From the IMG/VR virus record IMGVR_UViG_2923302340_000001: a DNA stretch of 48,684 nucleotides. The stretch is one strand, 5' to 3'. Positions within the stretch are counted from its first letter, which is position 1. Every line of letters starts with the position of its first letter. This DNA is from a virus (Duplodnaviria > Heunggongvirae > Uroviricota > Caudoviricetes). This document shows, in pieces, positions 10,476 through 44,107 of this stretch. Below the pieces are notes generated by a model. It saw only the letters and a program-made list of their open reading frames with translations, ran no database searches and was not told where the DNA came from. The position numbers and the translations under genes were made by a program.

Positions 10476-10600
10476 AAACAAAAAGCCCGCAGATAAATCT
10501 GCGGGCTTCTTGCGACATCCACGGAAAACCAACAAAACAATCCATGGGCGCCTCGACAACTCCCATTATACGTTGGTTTTCCGTGGACGCAAGAGCGAAC
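10476..10600 (-). ncRNA. candidate antisense RNA (CopA-like) opposite the repA leader
   Basis: Minus-strand intrinsic terminator (GCCCGCAG-ATAAAT-CTGCGGGC then T-run, 10476..10506) and 15-bp perfect stem 10519..10533 / 10572..10586 directly upstream of repA start. Confidence 0.3.
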
Positions 10601-11703: not shown

Positions 11704-11895
11704 AGGCTTTGCCTGTGAATATGTTCGCCCTTGCAGCGAGCTAAAGCTCGCGCCGGTTCGAGTCGCTACGCTCAAATATACCTCCTCCGGCAGCTGCCGG
11801 AGGCATGGAGTAGCCTGATCATCCTTTTCGAAACGGCGCGTTTCGAACTATACAAAATCAATTTATATAAGGCCGAAATAAGGCCTACGGCCGGG
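11704..11895. repeat. cluster of GC-rich palindromes/hairpins
   Basis: GCGAGC-TAAA-GCTCGC (11736..11751), perfect 20-bp palindrome CCTCCGGCAGCTGCCGGAGG (11784..11803), TTCGAAAC-GGCGC-GTTTCGAA (11827..11847), GGCC..GGCC (11871..11885). Confidence 0.6.
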
Positions 11896-12082: not shown

Positions 12083-12382
12083 ATGGAGATGGTTATGGAT
12101 AAAGATACTGTTTTAAAAATGTTGAATCCGGCTTGTTTAAAAAAAGCGGATGAATGGGAATCTCCTACATGTGGAGAAGTTCGGGCAGTCATTGGCCTGA
12201 CCGGAATGAGCGGCTCGCAGTTGGCCAAAAAACTTGGCTTAAAAGATAGTCGCAATGTTCGCAACTGGCAGATGTTAAAGGAGTCCACATCCAGATCCAG
12301 CATTCCGTATGCAGCCTGGGCGCTGCTGTGTTACTTCGCTGGATTAGGGTTAATCTTCATTGATAACAAAACAGATGTTTGA
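12083..12382 (+). CDS. hypothetical protein with HTH-like segment and hydrophobic C-terminus
   Basis: 99 aa; ...GLTGMSGSQLAKKLGL... HTH-like; C-terminal ...AAWALLCYFAGLGLIF. Confidence 0.3.
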   Translation: MEMVMDKDTVLKMLNPACLKKADEWESPTCGEVRAVIGLTGMSGSQLAKKLGLKDSRNVRNWQMLKESTSRSSIPYAAWALLCYFAGLGLIFIDNKTDV

Positions 12383-12903: not shown

Positions 12904-12913
12904 AGGATTGAGC

Positions 12914-13261
12914 ATGTGGACGGTACTTTTTAGCCAGCGATTTGACGACTGGCTAAATGAGCAAGAAGACGCTCTTCAGGAAAAGGTTTTGGCTGATTTG
13001 AAAAAGCTACAGGTTTACGGACCTGAGTTACCCAGGCCATATGCCGATACCGTAAAAGGTTCTCGGTACAAAAATATGAAAGAGCTTCGCGTTCAGTTTT
13101 CTGGCCGTCCGATAAGAGCCTTTTATGCGTTCGATCCGATTCGCCGGGCCATCGTTCTTTGTGCAGGAGACAAAAGTAACGATAAGCGGTTTTATGAAAA
13201 ACTGGTGCGTATAGCTGAGGATGAGTTTGCAGCACATCTGAACACACTGGAGAGCAAGTAA
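12914..13261 (+). CDS. type II toxin, RelE/HigB-like (addiction-module killer)
   Basis: ...GSRYKNMKELRVQFSGRPIRAFYAFDPIRRAIVLCAGDK...; toxin-first order; stop overlaps antitoxin ATG (TAATG). Confidence 0.55.
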   Translation: MWTVLFSQRFDDWLNEQEDALQEKVLADLKKLQVYGPELPRPYADTVKGSRYKNMKELRVQFSGRPIRAFYAFDPIRRAIVLCAGDKSNDKRFYEKLVRIAEDEFAAHLNTLESK

Positions 13262-13560
13262 TGAGAACATTAGATGAGGTGATTGCCAGCCGTTCACCTG
13301 AAAGCCAGGCGCGAATTAAAGAAATGGCAGATGAGATGATTCTTGAGGTCGGCTTGCAGATGATGCGTGAAGAACTCCAGTTATCACAAAAACAGGTTGC
13401 TGAGGCGATGGGTATAAGCCAGCCAGCAGTAACAAAGCTGGAGCAGCGCGGAAATGATTTAAAGCTGGCGACATTAAAGCGTTACGTTGAAGCTATGGGA
13501 GGCAAATTAAGCCTGGATGTTGAGCTTCCTACAGGAAAGCGAGTAGCGTTCCATGTCTAA
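13261..13560 (+). CDS. HigA-like HTH antitoxin (XRE family)
   Basis: 99 aa; HTH ...SQKQVAEAMGISQPAVTKLE... Confidence 0.55.
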   Translation: MRTLDEVIASRSPESQARIKEMADEMILEVGLQMMREELQLSQKQVAEAMGISQPAVTKLEQRGNDLKLATLKRYVEAMGGKLSLDVELPTGKRVAFHV

Positions 13561-13568
13561 CATAATGT

Positions 13569-13587
13569 AAGGCCCCATTGGGGCCTT
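13569..13587. terminator. bidirectional intrinsic terminator
   Basis: AAGGCCCC-ATT-GGGGCCTT between convergent genes. Confidence 0.5.
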
Positions 13588-13593
13588 ACTTAT

Positions 13594-13878
13594 TTACTTA
13601 CCATTTTTGCGGTTTTTTTCGGACTTCATAAGCTGGCTAACGCGCCCTGGTGTGATATTTAACATGCGGCTTACTTCAGCTTGTGATCCTACTTCCTCTA
13701 CTAGCGATGCAACATAGCGAGATTTTCCTGAGGAGGTTAATCCATTATATGTTGCTCGTACGACTTTTCCCTGAGCTTCTCTCATATCAACTAATGCCTG
13801 AGCAACCTGCTCAAAACCTTTAATTGTTACTTCTGTTAATGCTCGAATAGCATCAATTTCAGATTTTTGTTTAGCCAT
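13594..13878 (-). CDS. small HTH DNA-binding protein
   Basis: ATG at 13878 (MAKQKSEIDA...); ...SQAEVSRMLNITPGRVSQLM... HTH. Confidence 0.4.
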   Translation of the reverse strand: MAKQKSEIDAIRALTEVTIKGFEQVAQALVDMREAQGKVVRATYNGLTSSGKSRYVASLVEEVGSQAEVSRMLNITPGRVSQLMKSEKNRKNGK

Positions 13879-13925
13879 TTGGCACCTCAAATTGTTTAAA
13901 ATGTGTTAATTACAAAATTCAGCCG

Positions 13926-13944
13926 ATACCATGTTCAATGGTAT
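13926..13944. promoter_or_regulatory. palindrome ATACCAT-GTTCA-ATGGTAT upstream of 13594..13878
   Basis: 7-bp perfect arms in the promoter region of the minus-strand HTH gene. Confidence 0.3.
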
Positions 13945-14034
13945 AGCATTGCTGAAATGTCTTTTTCAAGACCTTGCCAATAAGCTAAACAAAAATGTTT
14001 AATGCTTCGCCTAAAAAAACACCAGTTACTATTA

Positions 14035-14145
14035 TTTATATAATTATAGATTTATATAAAAAGTGCTTTACATGTGGGAAAAAATTTCCTAAGGTTATAC
14101 CCGAAACCGAGCGATACCCGCCCTGGTTAAACCGGAGATAACCCG
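14035..14145 (+). promoter_or_regulatory. repeated promoter/leader cassette, copy 1
   Basis: ~110 bp nearly identical to 23415..23525 and 30666..30775: AT palindrome, TTTATATAAA, TTTACA-17 nt-TAAGGT, conserved leader ACCCGAAACCGAGCGATACCCGCCCTGGTTAAACCGGAGA, then ATG. Confidence 0.45.
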
Positions 14146-14526
14146 ATGAGCATGATTAAAATCCGCAAAAACGCTTTCCTTAAAATTCAAACTATCCTGG
14201 CTGGTTCTGTTGGCGTGATTTGCCGTTCTTCCTCAAGCCGCATCGATGACGGCTACGATGATGAGTATCGTGTGTCCTCATGCGATGAGGCTTTAACCTG
14301 GCTGAAGGAGAATCAGGAACGTGCCCAGGTATATCTGGAAACAGAGAACGGCAATCAGATGCTGCGTATTAGCGGTCGTTATGGATTTGAAACTACATTC
14401 ATGGCCTATTTTAATCAGGCTTACTTTGACAAGGAGTTGGCTTGGTACACTGATCGCATGAGCAAAAGCGAGCCAGCCCCGATTACACCGCCGAACAATA
14501 AACCATTTTTATTCCTCGTTAAGTAA
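14146..14526 (+). CDS. hypothetical protein (first gene behind cassette copy 1)
   Basis: 126 aa; no motif recognised. Confidence 0.35.
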   Translation: MSMIKIRKNAFLKIQTILAGSVGVICRSSSSRIDDGYDDEYRVSSCDEALTWLKENQERAQVYLETENGNQMLRISGRYGFETTFMAYFNQAYFDKELAWYTDRMSKSEPAPITPPNNKPFLFLVK

Positions 14527-14534
14527 ACACAATG

Positions 14535-14561
14535 CGCAAAGTGTCATTTTGACACTTTGCG
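14535..14561. promoter_or_regulatory. 27-bp palindrome CGCAAAGTGTCA-TTT-TGACACTTTGCG
   Basis: 12-bp perfect arms, between 14146..14526 and the HTH gene. Confidence 0.4.
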
Positions 14562-14589
14562 AGTGTTAATATTGTGCGAGGAGGGTGCT

Positions 14590-14862
14590 ATGACGGGTTA
14601 TGAATTGAAATTATGGCGTCGTGGGATGAACTGGACGCAGGAGCGAGCCGCCGAAGAATTTGGGATATCGTTGGCTACATATAAGCGATATGAGAAGGGG
14701 GAGCCGCCGAGGGTCATTGAGATGGCCATTCGCGTTCTGTCGTTTGACGATATGGTGAAGGATCTTTCACACCTTGATAAAGACGCGATTCTGTTAAGGC
14801 TGCAAACCCTTGTATGGGAAAAGGTTAAAGTGTCGTCAGAATTGGAACAAGGGATCAAATGA
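14590..14862 (+). CDS. XRE-family HTH protein
   Basis: AGGAGG-type RBS upstream of ATG 14590; ...WTQERAAEEFGISLATYKRYEKG... Confidence 0.45.
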   Translation: MTGYELKLWRRGMNWTQERAAEEFGISLATYKRYEKGEPPRVIEMAIRVLSFDDMVKDLSHLDKDAILLRLQTLVWEKVKVSSELEQGIK

Positions 14863-14910
14863 TCCTTTACGGATCGTTTTATGGTGGTGTAATGTAAGCG
14901 CCAGAAAGAC

Positions 14911-14936
14911 AAAAACCGCCTTGCCGGGCGGTTTTC
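14911..14936. terminator. bidirectional intrinsic terminator
   Basis: AACCGCC-TTGCCG-GGCGGTT flanked by A5 and T4. Confidence 0.55.
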
Positions 14937-15497
14937 AGTCTGAAATTTAAATCTTGCTTGGTAGGCTGGATTTAAAAAGACACCTCTTGATTGGGGCGGC
15001 TTTCTTGCGTCTAAAGATAATCAAATCTTTTTGCGCCTGCAACCCCTTTTTTACTGGTGCCCATTTCAGACTCACGCTCGCGTCGTTGTCTTTGCCACTT
15101 CGTTGGGTTCGGTGTTTTTGGGCGAAGTGGCGCGCGGGTATGCGTACAAGGGGAAAGTGTGCTGACGCAAGCCAGGAACAGCGATCTAAACTAAGTCGAG
15201 TCTGAGAAAGGCAGGAGTGCGACAACTCGCCTGTGCTCTATGAGCAGAAGAAGGTATATCAGACGACCAATGGCATGATTGTGGGCCACAGGGCGCACAC
15301 GGCGGCGAAGCATTGGAAACGATGTGGAGCTATCTGGTGGCATGAGTTCCGGTACTCGATCTCGAGCTTTTTTTGATGCTTTTGAGAAGGGGCCGGAACT
15401 CCGGTAAAGGGCACCCTGTATGGGGGGAGGGGGGGTTGTGTCTAAAGGAAGATCCAATACGATATTGCTTTACCCTTATATCTAAAAGGAGATTTCT

Positions 15498-16133
15498 ATG
15501 GGGATGCTGGTGGCGTTTATTATTAGCCTGATTTTGTGTTTCTTCGTAGTTCGTGGTGCATATCGGAAACAATGTGGCCCATCTTCTGGTAGTAAGTTCA
15601 AAGCTGTTTTAGTGAGTGGGTTTCTTGGGATTGCTACTTTTGTTGTTGTTAATACTCTTGCTGCTGTGGCCTTGATTCCAGAAGACTCCGGCACTACGGC
15701 TACTACCGGAGCTGCTTTCGATGGCGTGACCGTAGATAAGTTTAAGCAGCTATATAATGATGACCTTGAAGGTATCGCTACATCAGGAAAATCCACCTCC
15801 ACTATAAGAATTAAGTCAGTTAAACAAGGTAACAACACCGTTGAATTTGCCATCAATTCATCTGTTAACGGTCGAGCTAGAGTTGATAAGGATGGGAAGA
15901 TTTCAGAGTTATTATGGCGAGTATCTAAGCCTAGCTCTGATTCCTTGCTTTCTATGGCCGTAGCTGTTGAAGTCTTGGATGCATCAAGTGATAGAGACAC
16001 AGTGATCGCGCAGTTAGAGCAGATTGTTAAATCTGATACGCAGAAAGCTGAGTTTAAGACTAAGAGAGGCGAGTATTACGTTTCTCGTGACAAATCAGGG
16101 CACGTGTCGCTACTGATTACACCGAAATATTAA
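15498..16133 (+). CDS. membrane-anchored protein, unknown function
   Basis: AAAGGAG RBS; N-terminal hydrophobic helix LVAFIISLILCFFVV plus a second hydrophobic stretch; rest hydrophilic. Confidence 0.4.
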   Translation: MGMLVAFIISLILCFFVVRGAYRKQCGPSSGSKFKAVLVSGFLGIATFVVVNTLAAVALIPEDSGTTATTGAAFDGVTVDKFKQLYNDDLEGIATSGKSTSTIRIKSVKQGNNTVEFAINSSVNGRARVDKDGKISELLWRVSKPSSDSLLSMAVAVEVLDASSDRDTVIAQLEQIVKSDTQKAEFKTKRGEYYVSRDKSGHVSLLITPKY

Positions 16134-16144
16134 GAATTGAAGAA

Positions 16145-16169
16145 GCGCCCAAATCGGGCGCTTTGTTTT
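16145..16169. terminator. intrinsic terminator
   Basis: GCGCCC-AAATC-GGGCGC followed by TTTGTTTT. Confidence 0.5.
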
Positions 16170-17310
16170 ATGGTTTTGCACCTGCGGCCAGTTTATCCGC
16201 AGATATCTTTATCAGTTCCTGTAGTGTCCTGGCTGGTAGGTTTGCATCCAGTACGCTGAGTATGCTGTTGTGATCTGCCTGGTCGACTACTTTGCCTGTC
16301 GGTGGTAGTAGCTTGAGCTGAGGATTCAGGTTTTCGTCAAAGCTGATCAGTGCTCTGGCGTTTCTGAGCAGATCAAGAAGTAAGGCTGATATCACATCAT
16401 CTTTAGTCATTGTTGGTAGATTTAGTGCCGCTTTAGTTTTCTCCGTCGCCTTGTCAAACTCTTTGATTAGTGTCTTGCGGTAGTTTGGTTCCGTTAATAG
16501 CCGATGATGTTCTGTTGCCGTTCGGATAATCTTTGTTTCCTGATACAGTCGGTTGTATAGCATTCGCTCGTATTCTGCCTTTAACACGCTGCTGATAGCG
16601 TTAAAGGCTTCAATGTAGGCCAGCTTGATATCCTTCACGCCTGGACCGTCGATACTTTCCATGAGCAAGGTAAATCCGTCTTTTGTCATGCGATAGATTG
16701 TTATTTCGCGGTCGCTTCCTTCCAGCGGTCGTTGCTCTTTAAAGAAATGACGTGCCGCAGCTGTACGAGGAATGCGTAACGCATCGATGGCCATAACGAT
16801 GGAATTGTTTGTGGTGCTGAATGCCTGGGCTACATCGGCTGAGGTTGTGAGTGGCTCGTTGTTGCACACCTTAACGTAATACATTGGTTTGGCGTTGAGT
16901 GTATCGACAACCTCACGAGCATTGTTTGGCGAGACGGTTACGGTCGCGGCCGTTTGCGCGTTCTGGTTGAAATAGCAGTCTTCCAGCCGTTCGAATACAT
17001 CCCACGCCTGATCGGTTTCGAGCATTTTAGCGTGACGTGCAGCCCCGCGTTCGGTCCAGAGAATTAGGGAGCGGGCATTTTTACCAACTAACCCGATTGT
17101 TTCGGGTCTGTTCTTGAACTCGCGTAATTCGTTTTTTTCAATTTTAAAGTAATGCTTTCCGGCTACGAATCGCGTCGTGTTGTTCAGAAAGTTATCAGAA
17201 ATGTTTTTGATTTTCGTTCCGTATAACTGCGCCAGAAGTTCACTAGTGATAACGGGGATCTGGTTATGCAGGATAGGCTGTAGGGTGTTAACGGTCGGAA
17301 GCGTTTTCAT
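16168..17310 (-). CDS. antirepressor-like protein (KilA-N/ORF6N-type N-terminal domain plus Rha-like domain)
   Basis: 380 aa; N-terminus ...PVITSELLAQLYGTKIKNISDNFLNNTTRFVAGKHYF...; domain calls by recollection. Confidence 0.55.
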   Translation of the reverse strand: MKTLPTVNTLQPILHNQIPVITSELLAQLYGTKIKNISDNFLNNTTRFVAGKHYFKIEKNELREFKNRPETIGLVGKNARSLILWTERGAARHAKMLETDQAWDVFERLEDCYFNQNAQTAATVTVSPNNAREVVDTLNAKPMYYVKVCNNEPLTTSADVAQAFSTTNNSIVMAIDALRIPRTAAARHFFKEQRPLEGSDREITIYRMTKDGFTLLMESIDGPGVKDIKLAYIEAFNAISSVLKAEYERMLYNRLYQETKIIRTATEHHRLLTEPNYRKTLIKEFDKATEKTKAALNLPTMTKDDVISALLLDLLRNARALISFDENLNPQLKLLPPTGKVVDQADHNSILSVLDANLPARTLQELIKISADKLAAGAKP

Positions 17311-17498
17311 TTTGCACCTCCCATAACTACTTTGGTTACGAGGGAGATTTTTGCGTCAGAAACAGCGTTATCGTTGCTGGCGATGCGCATAGCTTCGCGC
17401 TCGATGATTTCAGCCAGGCGGAATTTATCGGCGTATGAGGCTTTCTTGAGAAGGATCTTTACGAGGTTGACGTAATAGTCATGGGGTAAGTTTGTCAT
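17307..17498 (-). CDS. small protein translationally coupled upstream of antirepressor
   Basis: 63 aa; ATGA overlap with 16168..17310. Confidence 0.3.
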   Translation of the reverse strand: MTNLPHDYYVNLVKILLKKASYADKFRLAEIIEREAMRIASNDNAVSDAKISLVTKVVMGGAK

Positions 17499-17662
17499 GG
17501 TGATAGTTCCCTTAAAGGTTAAGGATACTCACCACCGTCTGGTTCCAATCATTGGGTGGTGAGACGTACAGGGTTGGAACTACCGGTCACCATGGAATCC
17601 GGCGAGTCTTACGACTCCCCCGCACGCCCCACCATAATTTGGGTGTAGCAGTGCTTTACGCA

Positions 17663-17683
17663 TAAAAAAACCGCTAACGCGGT
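17663..17683 (-). terminator. candidate intrinsic terminator (minus strand)
   Basis: ACCGC-TAAC-GCGGT followed on the minus strand by T7. Confidence 0.4.
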
Positions 17684-17828
17684 ATGCGCCATGATGATTA
17701 TCGGGGTTCCAATCCCGACCGTAGATTTTGCTACGGCTCGGAAAGTGTCCACCAATGGCGCATTCATGTCAATACGGCGGGATTTTAACAGAGACAACCA
17801 CATAGCGTGGGTTTATTGGTAGGCAGAA

Positions 17829-17857: not shown

Positions 17858-18234
17858 CTTTCGTGCTGATCGGATTCGCGGTCCTTTCAGCATTACGTTG
17901 TTGTATAAATACAACCACGCAAGCACAAACAGCGATCATATTCTTACCCAACTGAATAAAATTGTCCAAATAAATTTGGTTTATTAGAGCACAAAAGCGA
18001 GTGATTTTTGTGGTGTGTATTTAAGTTGATGAAAAACAATATGTTTTTATCCCTTCATTATGAAGGGGCTGCGGTGTAACATTACGCGGGGCCTTTTCGC
18101 CGATTCGCAACCGGGCACCGACTTTCAGGAAAGGATTATCCACTTGCCGTACCACGCAGGCACAAACAGCGTGCTTGCTCTCGCGTCATTTTCGTCGGTG
18201 GGGATGCCGTGAAACGGCCTGTAAGGGCCACACA

Positions 18235-18357
18235 ATGAAAAAATACTACATGTGTATTTTTATCGTTGTTACTGGAGCTTTGTTTACGCCACATGGGGAG
18301 GGTTGGAAGATTACTGATAACGCTCTGAATGTGACGATAAACATTAGCAGCAAGTAG
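18235..18357 (+). CDS. small hydrophobic peptide (40 aa)
   Basis: MKKYYMCIFIVVTGALF...; followed by a strong terminator. Confidence 0.2.
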   Translation: MKKYYMCIFIVVTGALFTPHGEGWKITDNALNVTINISSK

Positions 18358-18362
18358 CGATT

Positions 18363-18386
18363 AGGCCCCTTCGGGGGCTTTTTTTA
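18363..18386 (+). terminator. intrinsic terminator
   Basis: AGGCCCC-TTCG-GGGGC followed by T7. Confidence 0.6.
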
Positions 18387-18856: not shown

Positions 18857-18899
18857 GTGTATCCCCTTTTATATAAATCTATAAAACTATAATTATATA

Positions 18900-19568
18900 T
18901 TACGCGGCAGTAGTCAGAGCCTCAAGCTGATTGATAATCCCCTGGATAACATCGTCTGCCTTTTTGCGTGGCGCAACGTATGAACACTCAATGAGGCTTA
19001 AGCCCTTATCCTGAGCTTTGCTCAGAGCTGGCTTGTGGGGAATGTACTTATCGACAACAAAGTATGGCGTATTAGCCAGGTACTCTTGGGCTTCGATGTA
19101 GTCAGCTTCGTTTTCAGCCGCGCCGGAAAACACCATGCAAATTTTCTTGATTGGTACACCCTTTTTAACGATGCCGTGAGCAGTGTTAACGGTGGTTTCC
19201 AGGTCATCGGTAGAGAATCGGGTTGGCAAAATAACCATATCCAGAAATTCAGATAGCTTCGGTACTGATTCAGATGCGTAGGCACCGCCATCAACGATAA
19301 CCAGGTCGTATACTTCTGATTCGATGATTTTCTGGACTTGTGATGGCGTGCCGCACGGCTGCGCCGCGATTGCAGGTTCGATATTGTTGGCCATTCTGCG
19401 TTGTACCCAACGCGTTACCGTTCCGTTAAGCACATCCATATCGATCAGGCATACATTCCAGCCAGCCTTTGCATAAGCAACTGCTAAAGCACGAGCAATG
19501 GTTGATTTGGTTACGCCGCCTTTTCCGTTGAAAATACCTACAGATATAGTCATTTGTCGAGACTCCAT
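18900..19568 (-). CDS. parA: ParA/ParF-type partition ATPase
   Basis: Deviant Walker A GIFNGKGGVTKST; 222 aa (alternative start 19553). Confidence 0.8.
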   Translation of the reverse strand: MESRQMTISVGIFNGKGGVTKSTIARALAVAYAKAGWNVCLIDMDVLNGTVTRWVQRRMANNIEPAIAAQPCGTPSQVQKIIESEVYDLVIVDGGAYASESVPKLSEFLDMVILPTRFSTDDLETTVNTAHGIVKKGVPIKKICMVFSGAAENEADYIEAQEYLANTPYFVVDKYIPHKPALSKAQDKGLSLIECSYVAPRKKADDVIQGIINQLEALTTAA

Positions 19569-19574
19569 GTGTTT

Positions 19575-19674
19575 GATTATATAATTCTATAAATCTATAT
19601 TTATAGAATGAGGTAAGCATAACCAACTTTTGAGCGGATGAAAAGCACTTTATATAATTATATAAATCTATAAT
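19575..19674. promoter_or_regulatory. partition-operon promoter with two AT-rich palindromic boxes (candidate centromere/operator)
   Basis: GATTATATAATTCTATAAATCTATATTTATAGAAT (19575..19609) and AAAAGCACTTTATATAATTATATAAATCTATAAT (19641..19674) upstream of parA. Confidence 0.4.
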
Positions 19675-19702
19675 ATGTAAGCGGGCTGGCGCCCGCTTGC
19701 AG

Positions 19703-23355: not shown

Positions 23356-23414
23356 AAGTGTCATTTTGAGCTGTTTTGGTGATTTGTAGACACCGGGAAT
23401 ATCGGAAAATCTAT

Positions 23415-23525
23415 AAATATATAATTATATATTTATATAAAAAGTGCTTTACAGGTGGGAAAAAATTTCCTAAGGTTATACCCAAAACCGAGCGATACCC
23501 GCCCTGGTTAAACCGGAGAAATCTG
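23415..23525 (+). promoter_or_regulatory. repeated promoter/leader cassette, copy 2
   Basis: TATATAATTATATA (23418..23431), TTTATATAAA, TTTACAGGTGGG..., conserved leader, ATG at 23526. Confidence 0.45.
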
Positions 23526-24593
23526 ATGAATAAACAAGTAATTATTTCTGACTGGATCAACAACCCTAACAGCCTGTTGAGCACTGATACTGGCTATAGA
23601 TTACGTCATGTTAATGGCCGTATGGTCAAAAGCGATGAGCACGAAACCTTTTTCGTTGTTGAAGACGATGGACGTCTTTATGAGGATGGTCACTCTTATG
23701 AATCCCAAACAGGTTGTATCCCTGCAGAGTTGGTAGACGTAACAGAAAAGCTGCGCAAAGCATGGCTTGAACAGCAGCAGCGCGGAGATGATTACGTAAA
23801 TACCTATCAGGAGCGCCAGAACGCGCGTCTTGCCCGATATATTGCTCGTGCAGAAAAAGCCAGAAAAGAAGGTGCGGTGGCGCATAAGCGAGCGCATGAA
23901 CTGTTGGATGTGATCCCGTTAGGCCAGCCGATTTTAGTTGACCATTATAGCGCGAAAGGCCATCGCCGCCGTTTGTCTAAAGCTGATGCGTTATTCAGAA
24001 AATCGTTTGTTGAGTGTGAAAGCAGAGCATCGTACTACGAAAGCAAAGCCGCAGGTGTCGGCCGTAATGGAGTTTCGTCTGATGATCCTGATGCGCTATT
24101 TAAGTTGCTTCGTAAGCTGCAAGGCTGCATGAAGTCACACATCAAAATGAAGGCCGCAAATAAGGCTATTCGCAAATACAAAAAAGACCAATTACAGCAG
24201 CTTTCCGCATTAATTGACCTTGAGTTTACTGAAAGCGAAGCCAAAGGGTTACTCGCCGGAGATTTCTGTGGGCACATTGGCTTCCCTTCATACTCACTGA
24301 GTAACAATAATGCCGAAATCAAACGACTACAGAGCCGTATTAAGGAGCTTGAATCGGTCAAGTCTGTAACAGGAGCACAGCGCGAAGAATACGACGGCTT
24401 TTCTATGGAGATAGATCCAGAGGATAACCGTATCCTGTTTTATTTCCCTGGCAAACCAGAGGCAAACATTCGTTCGCTGCTTAAATCACGCGCCTTTAAG
24501 TGGAGTCCAACCCGTAATGCATGGGTTCGCAAGATTACTCCAAACGCCCTGGCTGATGCCCGATATCTGAAAGAATCGCTATTGAAAGCCTGA
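23526..24593 (+). CDS. DUF3560-like protein (tentative)
   Basis: ATG 23526 directly after conserved leader (track start 23376 would translate the promoter cassette); 355 aa. Confidence 0.4.
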   Translation: MNKQVIISDWINNPNSLLSTDTGYRLRHVNGRMVKSDEHETFFVVEDDGRLYEDGHSYESQTGCIPAELVDVTEKLRKAWLEQQQRGDDYVNTYQERQNARLARYIARAEKARKEGAVAHKRAHELLDVIPLGQPILVDHYSAKGHRRRLSKADALFRKSFVECESRASYYESKAAGVGRNGVSSDDPDALFKLLRKLQGCMKSHIKMKAANKAIRKYKKDQLQQLSALIDLEFTESEAKGLLAGDFCGHIGFPSYSLSNNNAEIKRLQSRIKELESVKSVTGAQREEYDGFSMEIDPEDNRILFYFPGKPEANIRSLLKSRAFKWSPTRNAWVRKITPNALADARYLKESLLKA

Positions 24594-24624
24594 CAGTAAG
24601 TCTACGGCGGGATGTCTCCCGCTG

Positions 24625-24650
24625 TATATAGAATTATATATTTATATAAA
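24625..24650. promoter_or_regulatory. AT-rich palindromic box upstream of 24671 gene
   Basis: TATATAGAATTATATA + TTTATATAAA. Confidence 0.35.
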
Positions 24651-24670
24651 TGTATAAGGACGCCTCGACA

Positions 24671-29399: not shown

Positions 29400-29523
29400 T
29401 ACCGCCTGTGATTGGGTAAAGCCCATCTACCTGACTGATCACGACATCGATGTTATGGACCGCCAGACAAAGAAAGATATTCTGGCTCATAACAGGGCAT
29501 GGGAAATCAACTGCCGAAAGTAA
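29314..29523 (+). CDS. Rz1-like o-spanin lipoprotein
   Basis: Overlaps Rz-like gene in another frame; lipobox-like LIASC. Confidence 0.5.
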   Translation: MYSRVLTIWLMTMLIASCGSRGSVPVVVDTACDWVKPIYLTDHDIDVMDRQTKKDILAHNRAWEINCRK

Positions 29524-29554
29524 TATATATTTCTATAATTATATAAATATATAG
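29522..29554. promoter_or_regulatory. AT-rich palindromic box downstream of lysis genes
   Basis: AATATATATTTCTATAATTATATAAATATATAG. Confidence 0.3.
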
Positions 29555-29600
29555 TTACAACATTCTATGCGCTTTTCTCATGGGCGCACGCATCAACCAT

Positions 29601-30076: not shown

Positions 30077-30664
30077 ATGGAGGCAATTGCATTGTTTAAT
30101 CTGATTTATGCAGATCCCCCCTGGGAATACAAAGATAAGTGTAAGGATGGGAATCGTGGAGCTGGTTTTAAGTATCCAACGATGAAAGCTGAGGATATTG
30201 CTCGTATTCCTGTCTGGCAGCTTGCTAATCCTGAATCGTGTTTGTTGGCCATGTGGTGGGTTCCGACTCAGCCAGAAGAAGCGTTGCTGGTGGTGAAAGC
30301 ATGGGGATTCAGGCTTATGACCATGAAGGGCTTCACATGGAACAAATGTGGTAGCCGACAACCAGATAAGCTGGTGATGGGGATGGGGCATATGACTCGT
30401 GCAAACAGTGAAGATTGCTTGTTTGCGGTAAAAGGCAAATTGCCGACCCGCCTTGATGCGGGGATCATTCAGTCGTTTACATCGCCTCGTCTGGAGCATT
30501 CTCGGAAGCCTGATGTGGTTCGTGACAAGCTGGTAAGGCTGTTAGGTGATGTTCCTCGTATTGAGCTGTTTGCTCGCGGTGATTTACCTGATGGTTGGCA
30601 TGGCTGGGGCAACCAGTGCAATGGAGGTATCCAGTTGCATGATGCTCTCTGGCAAGTGGCATAG
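30077..30664 (+). CDS. DNA adenine methyltransferase, MT-A70-like
   Basis: N-terminal ...IYADPPWEYKDK... (DPPW motif). Confidence 0.65.
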   Translation: MEAIALFNLIYADPPWEYKDKCKDGNRGAGFKYPTMKAEDIARIPVWQLANPESCLLAMWWVPTQPEEALLVVKAWGFRLMTMKGFTWNKCGSRQPDKLVMGMGHMTRANSEDCLFAVKGKLPTRLDAGIIQSFTSPRLEHSRKPDVVRDKLVRLLGDVPRIELFARGDLPDGWHGWGNQCNGGIQLHDALWQVA

Positions 30665-30665
30665 A

Positions 30666-30775
30666 ATTATATAATTATAGGTTTATATAAAAAGTGCTTT
30701 ACAAGTGGGAAAAAATTTCCTAAGGTTATACCCGAAACCGAGCGATACCCGCCCTGGTTAAACCGGAGAAATCTG
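30666..30775 (+). promoter_or_regulatory. repeated promoter/leader cassette, copy 3
   Basis: ATTATATAATTATAG, TTTATATAAA, TTTACAAGTGGG..., conserved leader, ATG at 30776. Confidence 0.45.
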
Positions 30776-31045
30776 ATGAAAGTACAAGACCGTGAAGTAG
30801 TAAAAAACCTCCTGCAATACCTGACCTCAAAAAACCTGACGGGCAGCGTTGAGTTCCGTGAAGCGTTAAAACATTTCAACGTCACTACGGTTTATCGTTG
30901 GGAAAACAAACATTCTGAAAGACCGTATGTGGTGGATGTTTTTGCGCCTGATATTGAGTGCGGTTTTGAGCGTCATTCGTTCAAGGAGAAACATTCTGCT
31001 GATTTTTTTTGTGAGGTTGTATGTGCGGCAGGAGATGATGAGTGA
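30776..31045 (+). CDS. hypothetical protein (first gene behind cassette copy 3)
   Basis: 89 aa; acidic Cys-containing C-terminus. Confidence 0.3.
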   Translation: MKVQDREVVKNLLQYLTSKNLTGSVEFREALKHFNVTTVYRWENKHSERPYVVDVFAPDIECGFERHSFKEKHSADFFCEVVCAAGDDE

Positions 31046-32740: not shown

Positions 32741-33364
32741 ATGACAAAACATCTTAATGTGGTTTCTTTACCACTTTCTGTGTTGATTGGTTATGAAAAG
32801 AACGCTCGCACACACTCCGTGGAGCAGGTAGATCAGATTGTTGCCAGCATACAGGAGTACGGATGGACTAATCCGATCCTGATAGACGAGAACAATGTTG
32901 TAATTGCTGGTCATGGTCGAATTGCTGCGGCCACTCAGTTGGGGATGGATGATGTTCCCTGCATTGTTCTGGAAGGGCTAACGGAGAATCAGAAGAAGGC
33001 ATATCGTCTGGCCGACAACCGTATTCCGCTGAATGCTGGTTGGGATGAAGAGTTGTTAAGCGCGGAGCTTGCAGATCTTGCGGCCGATGATTTTGCTCTG
33101 GACTCAATTGGTTTTACTCAGCGCGAACTGGATAACTTATTGAGTGCGGCGGTCTACGATGACACAGAGGGTATGGATATCCCATTTGAGAAGGATGAGG
33201 CCAAATCAGGCGTAAAAGTTCAGTACCTGTCATTTGGAGGTCATAAAATCCCGGCAACGGATGAGGAAGCGGATCGTTTTGACTGCGCGGTGTCTCGTTA
33301 TGTTGATGATAATGGCAGCTATATCGGATTTGTATCCGCATTGCTGGCTGGGGAGGTGTGCTGA
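32741..33364 (+). CDS. ParB-like nuclease-domain protein
   Basis: ...ILIDENNVVIAGHGRIAAA...; paralogue of 36031..36621. Confidence 0.55.
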   Translation: MTKHLNVVSLPLSVLIGYEKNARTHSVEQVDQIVASIQEYGWTNPILIDENNVVIAGHGRIAAATQLGMDDVPCIVLEGLTENQKKAYRLADNRIPLNAGWDEELLSAELADLAADDFALDSIGFTQRELDNLLSAAVYDDTEGMDIPFEKDEAKSGVKVQYLSFGGHKIPATDEEADRFDCAVSRYVDDNGSYIGFVSALLAGEVC

Positions 33365-34737
33365 TGCTTCACCTGAATTACGACATAACGCACCTACGCG
33401 GCGCGGAATATAACCCGCGTTTTATCGGTGAGGATGATCTTGCGAGGCTGGCGGAAAGTGTCAGGGAGCTGGGGCTTGTGAAGCCATTGATAGTGCGCGG
33501 CGATTTGCTGGTGGCGGGACACCAAAGGACGAAGGCGCTACGTAAGTTGGGAATAACGCGTGCTGCGGTGTATGTGTTGCCCTGTGAAACGACGGTATAC
33601 GATGAAGTACGGTTTAACCAACTGCATAACGGAACGGATTTTGATAGCGGAGATGAGCGTTGCAGGGTGTCCGGTCTGGAAGATAAGCATGGTTTTGTTC
33701 AGGTATCGGCAAGCCAGATCTCAGGCAATATGCGCGCGAAAATGGCATATGTTCGAAAGAACATAGCGGAACTGGTTATCAAGTATGGTCCGTGGGGTGG
33801 TTGTGTTGCTACTCAGTCTGGCGAGGTTATTCACTGTGCTCAGTATGCATTAGCAGCGAAGATGACGCGCACACCGCTAACGGTGTTTGTGATCCCTGAT
33901 GTTGAGAAGGAAAAATACCAAAGTTATCTGAATAAAACTTATGGTGTATTTGAGTATTCTCATCTGGAGAAAACAACATACATCCAGACGTATGCGCAGC
34001 TTATGCGGTTGCGTAATGGTGGCAGCCTGAAATCAAACCTGTATGAGTCGTTGATCCTCCCGATCATTGCCAAGACGCCAAGAGGAATTGATTTTGGTTC
34101 GGGGCAGGGAGACTACGCGCGAATGCTCAGGGCAAAGGGATATAACCTGCATGATCTTGAGCTTTTTCGCCGTAAGGGCGCTGGAAACACTCTGGATAGG
34201 GCTGCAACAAACCGAATGATTGATACGCTGGTGGACGACTTAAAAACGCGAGGGCGTTACGACTACGTGATTTGCGATAGCGTTTTGAACTCGGTCGATA
34301 GTGTCGAGGCTGAATGGTCCGTTCTGACGGTTCTGAAAGGCCTGTGTAAAGCTGGTGGGTCAATATTCTTTTCTGGCCGTAGCCGTGGAGAGCTGGAGAG
34401 TGTGCTTAAACGAACGCAAGCTGCTAGCTCTATAAGCCGGCTTTATTTTATTGACCATAACGGTTTTTCTGCTTTGTACCGGAAGGGACACTGGTTTTAT
34501 CAGAAGTTCCATTCTGATGAGGAAGTGAAGCAATTGTGCCGTGAGCATAGCTTCAGAATAAAGCGGTCGGTATTTAACGGTAAGAGCTGGTATTTGCACG
34601 TTATTAACGATGATTCTCTTCGCTGGGAGAGTCTGGAGAAAGCTGTTCATTTTGAGTTTGAGTTGCCGTTGCCTGGCGGTTCAACAATCGGACGATCTGA
34701 TGATGTGCTGGCGGCTTTCCGGCCGTTGATTAAGTAG
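33358..34737 (+). CDS. fusion protein: ParB-like N-terminal domain plus class I SAM-methyltransferase-like C-terminal domain
   Basis: ...LIVRGDLLVAGHQRTKA... then GIDFGSGQGDYARML (motif I-like), ...YDYVICDSVLNS..., ...GGSIFFSG... Confidence 0.5.
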   Translation: MLMLHLNYDITHLRGAEYNPRFIGEDDLARLAESVRELGLVKPLIVRGDLLVAGHQRTKALRKLGITRAAVYVLPCETTVYDEVRFNQLHNGTDFDSGDERCRVSGLEDKHGFVQVSASQISGNMRAKMAYVRKNIAELVIKYGPWGGCVATQSGEVIHCAQYALAAKMTRTPLTVFVIPDVEKEKYQSYLNKTYGVFEYSHLEKTTYIQTYAQLMRLRNGGSLKSNLYESLILPIIAKTPRGIDFGSGQGDYARMLRAKGYNLHDLELFRRKGAGNTLDRAATNRMIDTLVDDLKTRGRYDYVICDSVLNSVDSVEAEWSVLTVLKGLCKAGGSIFFSGRSRGELESVLKRTQAASSISRLYFIDHNGFSALYRKGHWFYQKFHSDEEVKQLCREHSFRIKRSVFNGKSWYLHVINDDSLRWESLEKAVHFEFELPLPGGSTIGRSDDVLAAFRPLIK

Positions 34738-43763: not shown

Positions 43764-44107
43764 TGAACTCCTTCAAAGAGGTTATAGCGCAAGATATTTC
43801 TGCAATATTCCTCAATGAAAAAGAGTTTGCCGATACATATAACATAGACGGCAAGGATATCCTTGCCGTTATTGATACAGACCTTATTCATGAGCGGAAT
43901 AAACGCTCATATGCTGAGTTTGCAGAGGGAATAAATCAGGGGCAAATAATATTATTTGTTTCAAGAAAAGATTTTCCTGTTCTCCCTGTCAAAGACCAGT
44001 CAATGAAAATTAACGGTAAAAATTATATTGTTAATGAAGTATCAGATAATGTTGGTGTATTGGAAATAACTCTCACTGTTAATACTAACAGAGGAATGCC
44101 GATTTGA
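43763..44107 (+). CDS. hypothetical head-tail connector/completion protein
   Basis: 114 aa; position between head and sheath genes. Confidence 0.3.
   Translation: MNSFKEVIAQDISAIFLNEKEFADTYNIDGKDILAVIDTDLIHERNKRSYAEFAEGINQGQIILFVSRKDFPVLPVKDQSMKINGKNYIVNEVSDNVGVLEITLTVNTNRGMPI

What the first reader, a model, noticed from the sequence alone, without database searches (positions are those of the whole stretch)
14146..14862. Small unknown gene followed by a 27-bp perfect-arm palindrome and an XRE-HTH gene: acr/aca-like architecture
Behind cassette copy 1 lies a 126-aa protein of unknown function, then CGCAAAGTGTCA-TTT-TGACACTTTGCG (14535..14561), then a 91-aa XRE-type HTH protein with a strong RBS, then a bidirectional terminator. 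Small effector plus HTH autoregulator plus palindromic operator is the layout of anti-CRISPR/anti-defence loci (Acr followed by Aca). Hypothesis only.
Basis: inference. Interest (0 to 1): 0.6.

Follow-up and report, generated by a model that had tools for sequence, protein, structure and literature searches.

The report
Unknown early gene plus self-regulated repressor
A conserved two-gene module of a 48-kb E. coli phage-plasmid pairs a small protein of unknown fold with a small DNA-binding regulator distantly like the anti-CRISPR regulator Aca2; it looks like an anti-defence locus but is wired differently, and nothing yet shows what the small protein does.

Summary
orf126 is at 14146-14526, the perfect 12+3+12 palindrome at 14535-14561, the 90-aa XRE HTH gene (not 91 aa) at 14590-14862, and the terminator at 14910-14937. 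The window is a ~48-kb E. coli phage-plasmid, and 70 of 5,426 complete E. coli genomes carry the module.

The palindrome is unique in the window. It keeps its dyad through symmetric changes in six divergent loci, and a conserved extended -10 (TGnTAAnAT) follows 2 nt later. I read it as the operator of an internal promoter for the HTH gene. It does not sit in the promoter that drives orf126.

orf126 lies behind one of three near-identical promoter-leader cassettes. The other two drive a DUF3560/primase-like gene and an operon with a ParB-methyltransferase.

orf126 matches no Pfam, NCBIfam or PADLOC model, and its confident structure model has no fold match. Distant relatives lack the HTH partner, sit near rep/par genes, and are sometimes fused to LPD25.

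The closest solved relative of the HTH family is the Aca2 N-terminal domain, but the C-terminal domain and the Aca2 operator are absent. Natural insertions disrupt the HTH gene or its ribosome-binding site while orf126 stays intact, which argues against toxin-antitoxin.

Verdict: the acr/aca-like reading is partly supported. An anti-defence role is plausible but untested.

The parts
14027..14063 (.). AT-rich 'TATA-type' boxes with 8-bp period, then an A-tract, directly upstream of the cassette -35. Candidate operator or UP region, shared with six other places in the window.
   Evidence: Repeat family D1/D6. The three cassette copies are aligned. Function is inferred.
14067..14095 (+). Putative cassette promoter: -35 TTTACA 14067-14072, 17-nt spacer containing the dyad GGAAA-N3-TTTCC, -10 TAAGGT 14090-14095.
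   Evidence: Read by eye. Invariant in all three cassette copies. The consensus scan did not report it because the -10 is weak. Inference.
14096..14145 (+). Conserved leader of the cassette, with Shine-Dalgarno GGAGA at 14134-14138.
   Evidence: Nearly identical in the three copies up to and including the ATG. Folding z-score -2.8.
14146..14526 (+). orf126: 126-aa protein of an uncharacterised family. Core of ~100 aa, alpha-beta-beta-alpha-beta-beta-beta-alpha, with a disordered tail.
   Evidence: AF2 pLDDT 83.5. No fold match.
14535..14561 (.). 27-bp perfect palindrome. Inferred operator of the HTH protein; also forms a 12-bp hairpin in the orf126-HTH readthrough mRNA.
14564..14572 (+). Extended -10 element TG-T-TAATAT (TGnTAAAAT in relatives) of an inferred internal promoter for the HTH gene. 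The palindrome would span about -45 to -19.
   Evidence: Conserved in six divergent loci. Not detected by the two-hexamer scan. Inference.
14578..14585 (+). Shine-Dalgarno GAGGAGGG of the HTH gene.
14590..14862 (+). 90-aa XRE-family HTH protein. The N-terminal ~68 aa are distantly similar to the Aca2 HTH domain; the C-terminal part is short and was not modelled.
14910..14937 (.). Terminator hairpin flanked by an A-tract and a T-tract that closes the module.
   Evidence: reported on the minus strand. Plus-strand function read by eye.

Best explanation
The region is a conserved accessory operon of a ~48-kb E. coli phage-plasmid.

- orf126 is transcribed from one of three near-identical promoter-leader cassettes. 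These probably form one co-regulated 'entry/establishment' regulon. The other two cassettes drive a DUF3560/primase-like gene and an operon ending in ParB-like and ParB-methyltransferase genes.
- orf126 is a small alpha/beta protein with no catalytic signature. I take it to act by binding a host or plasmid factor soon after entry, most likely against a host defence or takeover barrier.
- The 27-bp palindrome is not the switch for orf126. It is the binding site of the downstream 90-aa HTH dimer and covers the -35/spacer region of an extended -10 promoter that serves the HTH gene.
- The HTH therefore represses its own synthesis. It may also impede readthrough from the cassette promoter or bind the same sequence as an mRNA hairpin, as Aca2 does.

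Shown: the anatomy, conservation, uniqueness and dyad covariation of the site, the homology of the HTH domain, and the contexts of both families. Inferred: both promoters, binding of the HTH to the palindrome, the direction of regulation, and every statement about what orf126 does.
For: - Anatomy.
- Three cassettes, invariant from the TATA boxes through the start codon.
- Cassette partners: DUF3560/primase-like; ParB_N and ParB_N+methyltransferase.
- The same pattern of a repeated cassette in front of the family member occurs in distant phage-plasmids L018 and L021.
- The palindrome is unique in the window, rare by chance, and present in all 14 matching loci. The dyad is kept with 4 double changes, and the inner 9 bp are invariant.
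- A conserved TGnTAAnAT lies 2 nt downstream, while the sequence between it and the SD varies and carries an 8-nt indel.
- HTH: HTH_3. The best solved-structure match of the family profile is Aca2 residues 1-69, followed by MqsA and HipB. All three bind inverted repeats as dimers (PMC6765145 for Aca2 and MqsA).
- orf126 family context: next to repA, par and antirepressor genes of phage-plasmids; between parAB and traM/primase/relaxase in a conjugative plasmid; fused to LPD25 at borderline scores. LPD25 is a domain of polyvalent proteins proposed to act early in establishment (PMC5512222).
- orf126 and the HTH co-occur: 58 plasmid records at >=95% identity for each protein.
Against: - No experiment or homology assigns any activity to orf126. 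PADLOC, Pfam and NCBIfam give no hit and PHROGs only an unknown-function family.
- The promoter scan did not call either promoter.
- With the -10 at 14567-14572, the window's own leader would be only ~11 nt.
- In pAPSLC-48K, ~590 bp carrying an antisense 141-aa gene separate the palindrome and -10 from the HTH start. The palindrome always stays 8 nt behind the orf126 stop. This fits equally well with a 3' hairpin belonging to orf126.
- Dyad covariation cannot separate a protein operator from an RNA stem.
- The 'establishment regulon' idea rests on annotations of neighbouring genes only.
Confidence: 0.45

Rival explanations
1. A genuine acr-aca type locus. orf126 is an anti-CRISPR or other anti-defence protein. 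The HTH is its dedicated Aca-like governor and limits orf126 output, for example by roadblocking or by binding the intercistronic RNA hairpin, as well as its own.
For: - Gene order and size fit.
- The HTH domain is nearest to Aca2 among solved structures.
- Aca2 binds both DNA inverted repeats and RNA stem-loops, and RNA motifs between genes of anti-defence operons have been described (PMC13551039, sections 4 and 22).
- orf126 shares its cassette with a ParB-methyltransferase operon.
- The pair co-occurs strictly in Enterobacteriaceae phage-plasmids.
Against: - The site lies downstream of orf126, so it cannot block initiation at the cassette promoter, and no second site exists there.
- The Pfam Aca2_YdiL model is not matched and the C-terminal domain is missing.
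- orf126 relatives elsewhere lack the HTH.
- HTH relatives are not next to known acr genes in the contexts examined.
- The HTH gene is interrupted or uncoupled from its ribosome-binding site in natural isolates, including plaque-forming Yersinia phages.
Confidence: 0.17
2. The palindrome acts only as an RNA or DNA hairpin at the 3' end of orf126 (mRNA stabiliser, processing site or weak attenuator). The HTH binds elsewhere or regulates something else.
For: - The hairpin is stable: the 86-nt region folds at -29.4 kcal/mol, z -4.1.
- It always sits 8 nt after the orf126 stop, including in variants where insertions move the HTH gene away.
- Covariation is compatible with an RNA stem.
Against: - No U-tract follows on the plus strand. 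The scan lists it only on the minus strand, where no gene needs terminating.
- The inner 9 bp of each arm are invariant while only the outer positions covary. This is the pattern of sequence-specific recognition rather than of a generic stem.
- A conserved extended -10 follows at a fixed distance.
- The site occurs only where the HTH gene occurs.
Confidence: 0.15
3. The HTH is a controller-type regulator left over from, or serving, a variable cargo slot downstream, as in relatives where it heads restriction-endonuclease or ATPase operons. orf126 is merely its neighbour.
For: - HTH relatives at 42-57% identity lie directly upstream of an Mrr-like endonuclease in pOXA-48-type plasmids and in L023, and upstream of an AAA_15/21 ATPase in L025.
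- The gene after the HTH differs between relatives in size: 61 to 264 aa.
- The sequence match of several relatives to the window ends at about window 15448.
Against: - A terminator and ~560 bp of conserved non-coding DNA separate the HTH from the next gene.
- No second copy of the palindrome lies there.
- No C-protein appears among the PDB matches.
Confidence: 0.13
4. A toxin-first type II toxin-antitoxin pair (like HigBA or MqsRA), with orf126 as toxin and the HTH as antitoxin.
For: - Toxin-first order.
- The HTH has weak matches to the antitoxins MqsA and HipB.
- A HigB/HigA-like pair lies next door at 12908-13560.
Against: - The HTH gene is truncated by an IS110-family element in L006 while orf126 stays intact; that orf126 cluster has 22 member sequences.
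- A 318-bp element separates the HTH start from its ribosome-binding site in viable Yersinia phages.
- Most orf126 relatives have no HTH partner.
- orf126 has no toxin fold or family hit.
- No operator lies at the operon promoter.
Confidence: 0.04

Closest known systems
acrIF8-aca2 operon of Pectobacterium phage ZF40 (Aca2, Pfam Aca2_YdiL)
   Same: - A small gene of a mobile element is followed by an HTH autoregulator gene.
- The N-terminal HTH domain is homologous: 30% identity over 67 columns, hhalign probability 95.8%.
- A perfect inverted repeat is associated with the HTH gene.
- Aca2 is known to use one HTH for both DNA and RNA hairpin binding (PMC13551039).
   Different: - Aca2 operators (core TTCG-N6/8-CGAA) lie in the promoter and 5' UTR upstream of the acr gene (PMC6765145). 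Here a different palindrome lies between the two genes, in front of an internal promoter.
- The protein is 90 aa and lacks the Aca2 C-terminal dimerisation domain.
- The Pfam model is not matched.
- The upstream gene has no demonstrated anti-defence activity.
MqsA and HipB type XRE antitoxin/autorepressors
   Same: Small XRE HTH proteins that bind palindromes as dimers. They are the next-best sequence matches.
   Different: No partner with toxin features. The HTH is dispensable in natural variants. The operator is not at the operon promoter.
Controller (C) proteins of restriction-modification systems
   Same: An ~80-100-aa XRE HTH whose palindromic site lies just upstream of its own gene and overlaps the -35 region. 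Relatives of this HTH precede restriction-endonuclease genes.
   Different: No endonuclease follows in the window; a terminator does. No C-protein appeared among the PDB hits.
Leading-region / establishment gene sets of conjugative plasmids and polyvalent-protein domains (LPD25)
   Same: - Relatives of orf126 are fused to LPD25, and one lies between parAB and traM/primase/relaxase in a conjugative plasmid.
- A 35%-identical HTH annotated ygeA lies between oriT (nikA/nikB) and ardA in an IncI plasmid.
- The sister cassettes drive DUF3560 and ParB-methyltransferase genes.
- Leading regions are enriched in anti-defence genes (PMC11541004).
   Different: This element is a non-mobilizable phage-plasmid that enters as double-stranded phage DNA. 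Its repeated promoters are ordinary-looking double-stranded promoters with AT-rich boxes, not single-strand promoters.

Membership tests
acr-aca operon (functional class) | A small gene immediately upstream of, and co-oriented with, an HTH gene on a phage or plasmid | tested here: met
   Conserved in L003-L005 and L014.
acr-aca operon (functional class) | The Aca operator (inverted repeat) lies in the promoter or 5' UTR upstream of the acr gene, so that Aca represses the whole operon | tested here: not met
   The only copy of the palindrome or its half-site pair is at 14535-14561, downstream of orf126. There is none at the cassette promoter 14027-14145.
acr-aca operon (functional class) | The upstream protein inhibits CRISPR-Cas or another defence system | not testable with these tools
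   No homology to any described family and no fold match.
acr-aca operon (functional class) | Homologues of the HTH are found next to known acr genes (guilt by association) | tested here: not met
   In the contexts inspected, the neighbours are a membrane protein, an Mrr-like endonuclease, an AAA ATPase, a HerA-like fragment, an Rpn transposase-like gene and leading-region genes. This is a small sample.
Aca2 / YdiL family (Pfam PF08965) | N-terminal HTH domain homologous to that of Aca2 | tested here: met
   Family profile against PDB: 7ezy_A, E 8.5e-4, residues 1-69. hhalign probability 95.8%. The window protein alone did not retrieve Aca2 at E<=1.
Aca2 / YdiL family (Pfam PF08965) | C-terminal dimerisation domain and a match to the family model | tested here: not met
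   The protein is 90 aa and the alignment ends at residue ~68. The window protein has no Aca2_YdiL hit at E<=1; only 3 of 18 relatives hit it, best E 0.063.
Aca2 / YdiL family (Pfam PF08965) | Operator with a TTCG-N6/8-CGAA core | tested here: not met
   The palindrome core is AAAGTGTCA-N3-TGACACTTT. The Aca2 core is taken from PMC6765145.
Type II toxin-antitoxin, toxin-first | The antitoxin cannot be lost while the toxin gene is intact | tested here: not met
   IS110-family truncation of the HTH with orf126 intact. A 318-bp element separates the HTH start from its ribosome-binding site in viable phages.
Type II toxin-antitoxin, toxin-first | The upstream protein belongs to a toxin fold or family | tested here: not met
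R-M controller (C) protein | A palindromic box just upstream of its own gene, with the endonuclease gene downstream in the same operon | tested here: inconclusive
   The first half is met. In the window a terminator follows and no endonuclease. Relatives at 42-55% identity do precede Mrr-like endonucleases.
Intrinsic terminator | A GC-rich stem followed by a U-tract on the transcribed strand | tested here: not met
   On the plus strand the stem is followed by AGTGTTAATATTG. The scan reports the site only on the minus strand.
Polyvalent-protein associated domains (LPD set) | The domain occurs fused to other LPD or effector domains in proteins of phages and conjugative elements | tested here: inconclusive
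   Four distant relatives carry LPD25 C-terminally, but at or below the Pfam cut-off: 26.8, 27.1, 22.0 and 19.1 bits against 27. Others carry an unrelated ~75-aa C-terminal module.

The most novel reading that the evidence does not exclude
orf126 founds a new anti-defence protein family with a fold not seen in the PDB. It is expressed on entry of a clinically common E. coli phage-plasmid as part of a three-promoter 'entry regulon', the phage-plasmid counterpart of a conjugative plasmid's leading region. Its partner is a minimal, single-domain Aca2-like HTH that acts from an intercistronic site on DNA and possibly on RNA.
Probability: 0.22. Interest if true: 0.75.

Novelty: new member of a known kind. 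Interest (0 to 1): 0.45.

Why it matters
- These ~48-kb phage-plasmids are carried by about 1.3% of complete E. coli genomes (70 of 5,426). They also occur in Salmonella, Klebsiella and Yersinia-infecting phages.
- If orf126 is an entry-phase effector, it would add a protein family of unknown fold to the anti-defence repertoire.
- It would also show that phage-plasmids organise establishment genes behind repeated, co-regulated promoters, much as conjugative plasmids do in their leading regions.
- The HTH would extend the Aca2-like lineage to a single-domain form with an intercistronic operator.
- If orf126 turns out to be a housekeeping accessory of the plasmid, the locus is an ordinary autoregulated HTH next to an orphan gene.

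Tried and rejected
- Family searches for orf126: Pfam, NCBIfam and PADLOC gave nothing, and PHROGs gave only an unknown-function family.
- PDB sequence searches with single and deep profiles of orf126: nothing.
- The afdb50 library was unavailable.
- Acidic DNA-mimic idea rejected: pI 6.3, net charge about 0.
- Plus-strand intrinsic terminator rejected: no U-tract.
- Rfam: nothing in 13500-15600 beyond a sub-threshold chance hit.
- The search for related loci on genome contigs failed for lack of a conserved stretch.
- Literature searches by protein accession, PHROG number and Yersinia phage name found nothing.
- I first guessed the element belonged to the pSLy3 phage-plasmid group. That group belongs to the SSU5 supergroup, with which this element shows no evident relation, so I dropped the idea.
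- AcrIE9/10a, an HTH-like protein linked to E. coli anti-CRISPR loci, starts with a different sequence as read from its cloning primer, so I did not pursue it.

Full report
**What the window is.** The region 13560-15500 is 98-99.8% identical to dozens of circular, non-mobilizable ~46-50-kb plasmids of E. coli, E. fergusonii and E. albertii. It is also 98.8% identical to three Yersinia pestis phages, vB_YpM_39, 41 and 44. The annotated neighbours are tail-fibre genes, an IncFII-type repA, a HigB/HigA-like pair, an ORF6N/Rha antirepressor, ParA and a CI-like repressor. Rfam finds a P1-type C4 antisense RNA in front of the antirepressor. The element is therefore a phage-plasmid. The module under study is present in 70 of 5,426 complete E. 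coli genomes, almost always on such plasmids.

**Checking the observation.**
- orf126 runs from 14146 to 14526.
- The palindrome CGCAAAGTGTCA-TTT-TGACACTTTGCG occupies exactly 14535-14561.
- The HTH gene starts at ATG 14590 behind GAGGAGGG and ends at 14862. It encodes 90 aa rather than 91.
- A hairpin flanked by an A-tract and a T-tract lies at 14910-14937.
- 'Cassette copy 1' is one of three ~127-nt copies.

A perfect inverted repeat with 12-nt arms is expected 0.06 times per window by chance.

**The palindrome.** It is the only copy in the window, even allowing 2-3 mismatches. It was found in all 14 fetched loci listed as matching (L001-L014), which carry the orf126/HTH module, and in none of the others. 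Across six divergent versions from Escherichia, Klebsiella and Salmonella-type elements:
- the dyad is kept in 93% of cells, with four pairs changed on both sides;
- sliding the partner by 1-3 columns drops pairing to 30-50%;
- the inner nine base pairs of each arm (AAAGTnTCA) hardly vary, while the outer ones change symmetrically.

Two nucleotides downstream lies a conserved TG-n-TAAAAT, which is TG-T-TAATAT in the window. The stretch from there to the Shine-Dalgarno sequence is variable and carries an 8-nt indel.

I read this as an extended -10 promoter whose -35/spacer region (about -45 to -19) is covered by a dimer-binding operator. This is an inference. The two-hexamer promoter scan did not call it, and nothing here shows binding. 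As RNA the palindrome would also form a stable hairpin in readthrough transcripts. It has no U-tract, so it is not a canonical terminator on the coding strand.

**The HTH protein.**
- It is an XRE-type HTH (HTH_3, E 6e-7).
- Close homologues are confined to the same phage-plasmids.
- Relatives at 35-57% identity occur in more than 3,700 plasmids, mostly conjugative ones.
- A profile of the family finds the anti-CRISPR-associated protein Aca2 (7ezy_A) as the best solved relative. The alignment runs from residue 1 to 69 at E 8.5e-4, ahead of MqsA and HipB. hhalign gives 95.8% probability and 30% identity.
- The window protein does not match the Pfam Aca2_YdiL model, and the alignment stops where Aca2's C-terminal dimerisation domain begins.
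- The palindrome has nothing in common with the TTCG-N6/8-CGAA operators of Aca2 (PMC6765145).

It is thus Aca2-like in its DNA-binding domain but not a member of that family.

The relatives whose neighbourhoods I inspected lie:
- inside operons with an Mrr-like endonuclease (pOXA-48 type and L023);
- in front of an AAA_15/21 ATPase (L025);
- after a HerA-like gene fragment (L024);
- in the region of an IncI plasmid between oriT (nikA/nikB) and ardA, annotated ygeA.

None is next to a known acr gene.

**orf126.**
- It has no Pfam, NCBIfam or PADLOC hit. Its PHROG family has no known function.
- Close homologues (65-97% identity) are restricted to Enterobacteriaceae phage-plasmids.
- An exhaustive profile search finds only 38 cluster representatives, sharing an N-terminal ~100-aa core that begins with IRKNAxKKI.
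- AlphaFold models are confident over that core (pLDDT 83.5).
- The protein is near-neutral in charge.

Distant relatives have no downstream XRE HTH. They sit next to repA, antirepressor or partition genes of ~40-48-kb phage-plasmid-like contigs, again directly behind a promoter-leader cassette that is repeated two or three times. One relative lies in a conjugative plasmid between parAB and traM/primase/relaxase. Some carry C-terminal extensions: either an unrelated ~75-aa module that is a separate gene elsewhere, or LPD25 at borderline Pfam scores. LPD25 is a domain of the 'polyvalent proteins' proposed to act early in establishment of phages and conjugative elements (PMC5512222).

**The cassette.** The three copies are invariant from the AT-rich boxes through a TTTACA-17-TAAGGT promoter-like stretch, a ~45-nt leader, the GGAGA ribosome-binding site and the ATG.
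- Copy 2 drives a DUF3560/primase-like gene.
- Copy 3 drives small ORFs followed by ParB-like and ParB-methyltransferase genes.
- The same 8-bp-period AT-rich boxes also flank parA and occur at two further places.

This suggests a single regulator controlling several operons. It places orf126 in a set with an establishment or anti-restriction flavour. This is context, not proof.

**Natural variants.** I found three independent rearrangements, and orf126 is intact in all of them.
- A 318-bp element with 38-bp GGGG-type terminal inverted repeats and a 5-bp duplication sits in the HTH start codon of Yersinia phages vB_YpM_41 and 44. It separates the gene from its ribosome-binding site.
- An IS110-family element truncates the HTH in L006.
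- In pAPSLC-48K, ~590 bp with an antisense 141-aa gene lie between the -10 element and the HTH start.

This makes a toxin-antitoxin relationship very unlikely and shows that the HTH is not indispensable. It also leaves open that the hairpin belongs functionally to the 3' end of orf126.

**Verdict.** The structure is real and conserved.
- The most likely mechanism is an autoregulated, Aca2-like small HTH with its own operator and promoter, placed behind an early-expressed effector of unknown target.
- The HTH probably does not control the promoter of orf126, so the locus resembles an acr-aca operon in layout but not in wiring.
- An anti-defence role for orf126 is the best single guess, at roughly one in three including the canonical reading. 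It rests only on context.
- I rate the locus as a new member of a known kind, of moderate interest.

Noticed in passing
window 14031-14157, 23412-23538, 30662-30788; AT-rich boxes also at 18868-18907, 19576-19678, 24617-24656, 29522-29569: Three near-identical promoter-leader cassettes carry 8-bp-period TATA-type boxes, and the same boxes flank parA. This looks like a plasmid-wide regulon under one repeat-binding protein, similar in logic to ParG, omega or KorB. Distant phage-plasmids (L018, L021) have their own repeated cassettes.
   Followed up: partly
L002 6557-6874 (Yersinia phage vB_YpM_41; also vB_YpM_44): A 318-bp non-coding element with 38-bp terminal inverted repeats starting GGGG and a 5-bp target duplication (GCTAT), resembling a Tn3-derived miniature element. 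It is inserted in the start codon of the HTH gene.
   Followed up: partly
L153 838-1420 (E. coli plasmid pAPSLC-48K): About 590 bp carrying an oppositely oriented 141-aa gene with no Pfam hit are inserted between the palindrome/-10 element and the HTH start. Together with the IS110-family element in L006, this makes the spot a recurrent insertion site.
   Followed up: partly
window 16168-17737 (minus strand) and 18087-18385: A P1-like immunity module: C4 antisense RNA (17552-17639), an isrK-like RNA (17664-17737), a 63-aa gene and an ORF6N/Rha antirepressor (16168-17310). A ryfA-like RNA lies at 18087-18385.
   Followed up: no
window 14938-15497: About 560 bp with no convincing ORF or Rfam match between the terminator and the 211-aa membrane-protein gene. 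It includes a G-run at 15422-15435. It is conserved up to ~15448 in most relatives, after which the downstream gene varies between elements.
   Followed up: no
window 12083-12382: This 99-aa HTH-like protein has relatives that travel with the orf126 family in distant phage-plasmids (L015, L018, L021, L022). They appear there together with a 108-133-aa 'ILEQLGGxRF...MTGAK' protein and a 76-aa 'KMTL...YKSWRG' protein. None of these three neighbour proteins in L021 matched Pfam; the window protein itself has no significant hit.
   Followed up: partly
window 32741-34737: The operon behind cassette copy 3 ends with a ParB_N protein and a ParB_N-methyltransferase fusion, a type of orphan methylase.
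   Followed up: no
window 13594-13890 (minus strand): A 98-aa basic protein with a weak HTH/YdaS-like C-terminus is divergent from cassette 1. It is absent from the Yersinia phages, which keep the cassette.
   Followed up: no
HTH protein residue ~29 (window about 14674-14676): The subclade that carries the palindrome has Ala in the motif ISL(A/R)TY. Most relatives have Arg there, as does Aca2 at the aligned position, which I take to be the DNA-contacting R30. This is consistent with a changed operator specificity.
   Followed up: no
window 10483-10508, 11784-11803, 43848-43869: Other perfect palindromes with arms of 10-12 nt, one of them at the start of the repA region.
   Followed up: no
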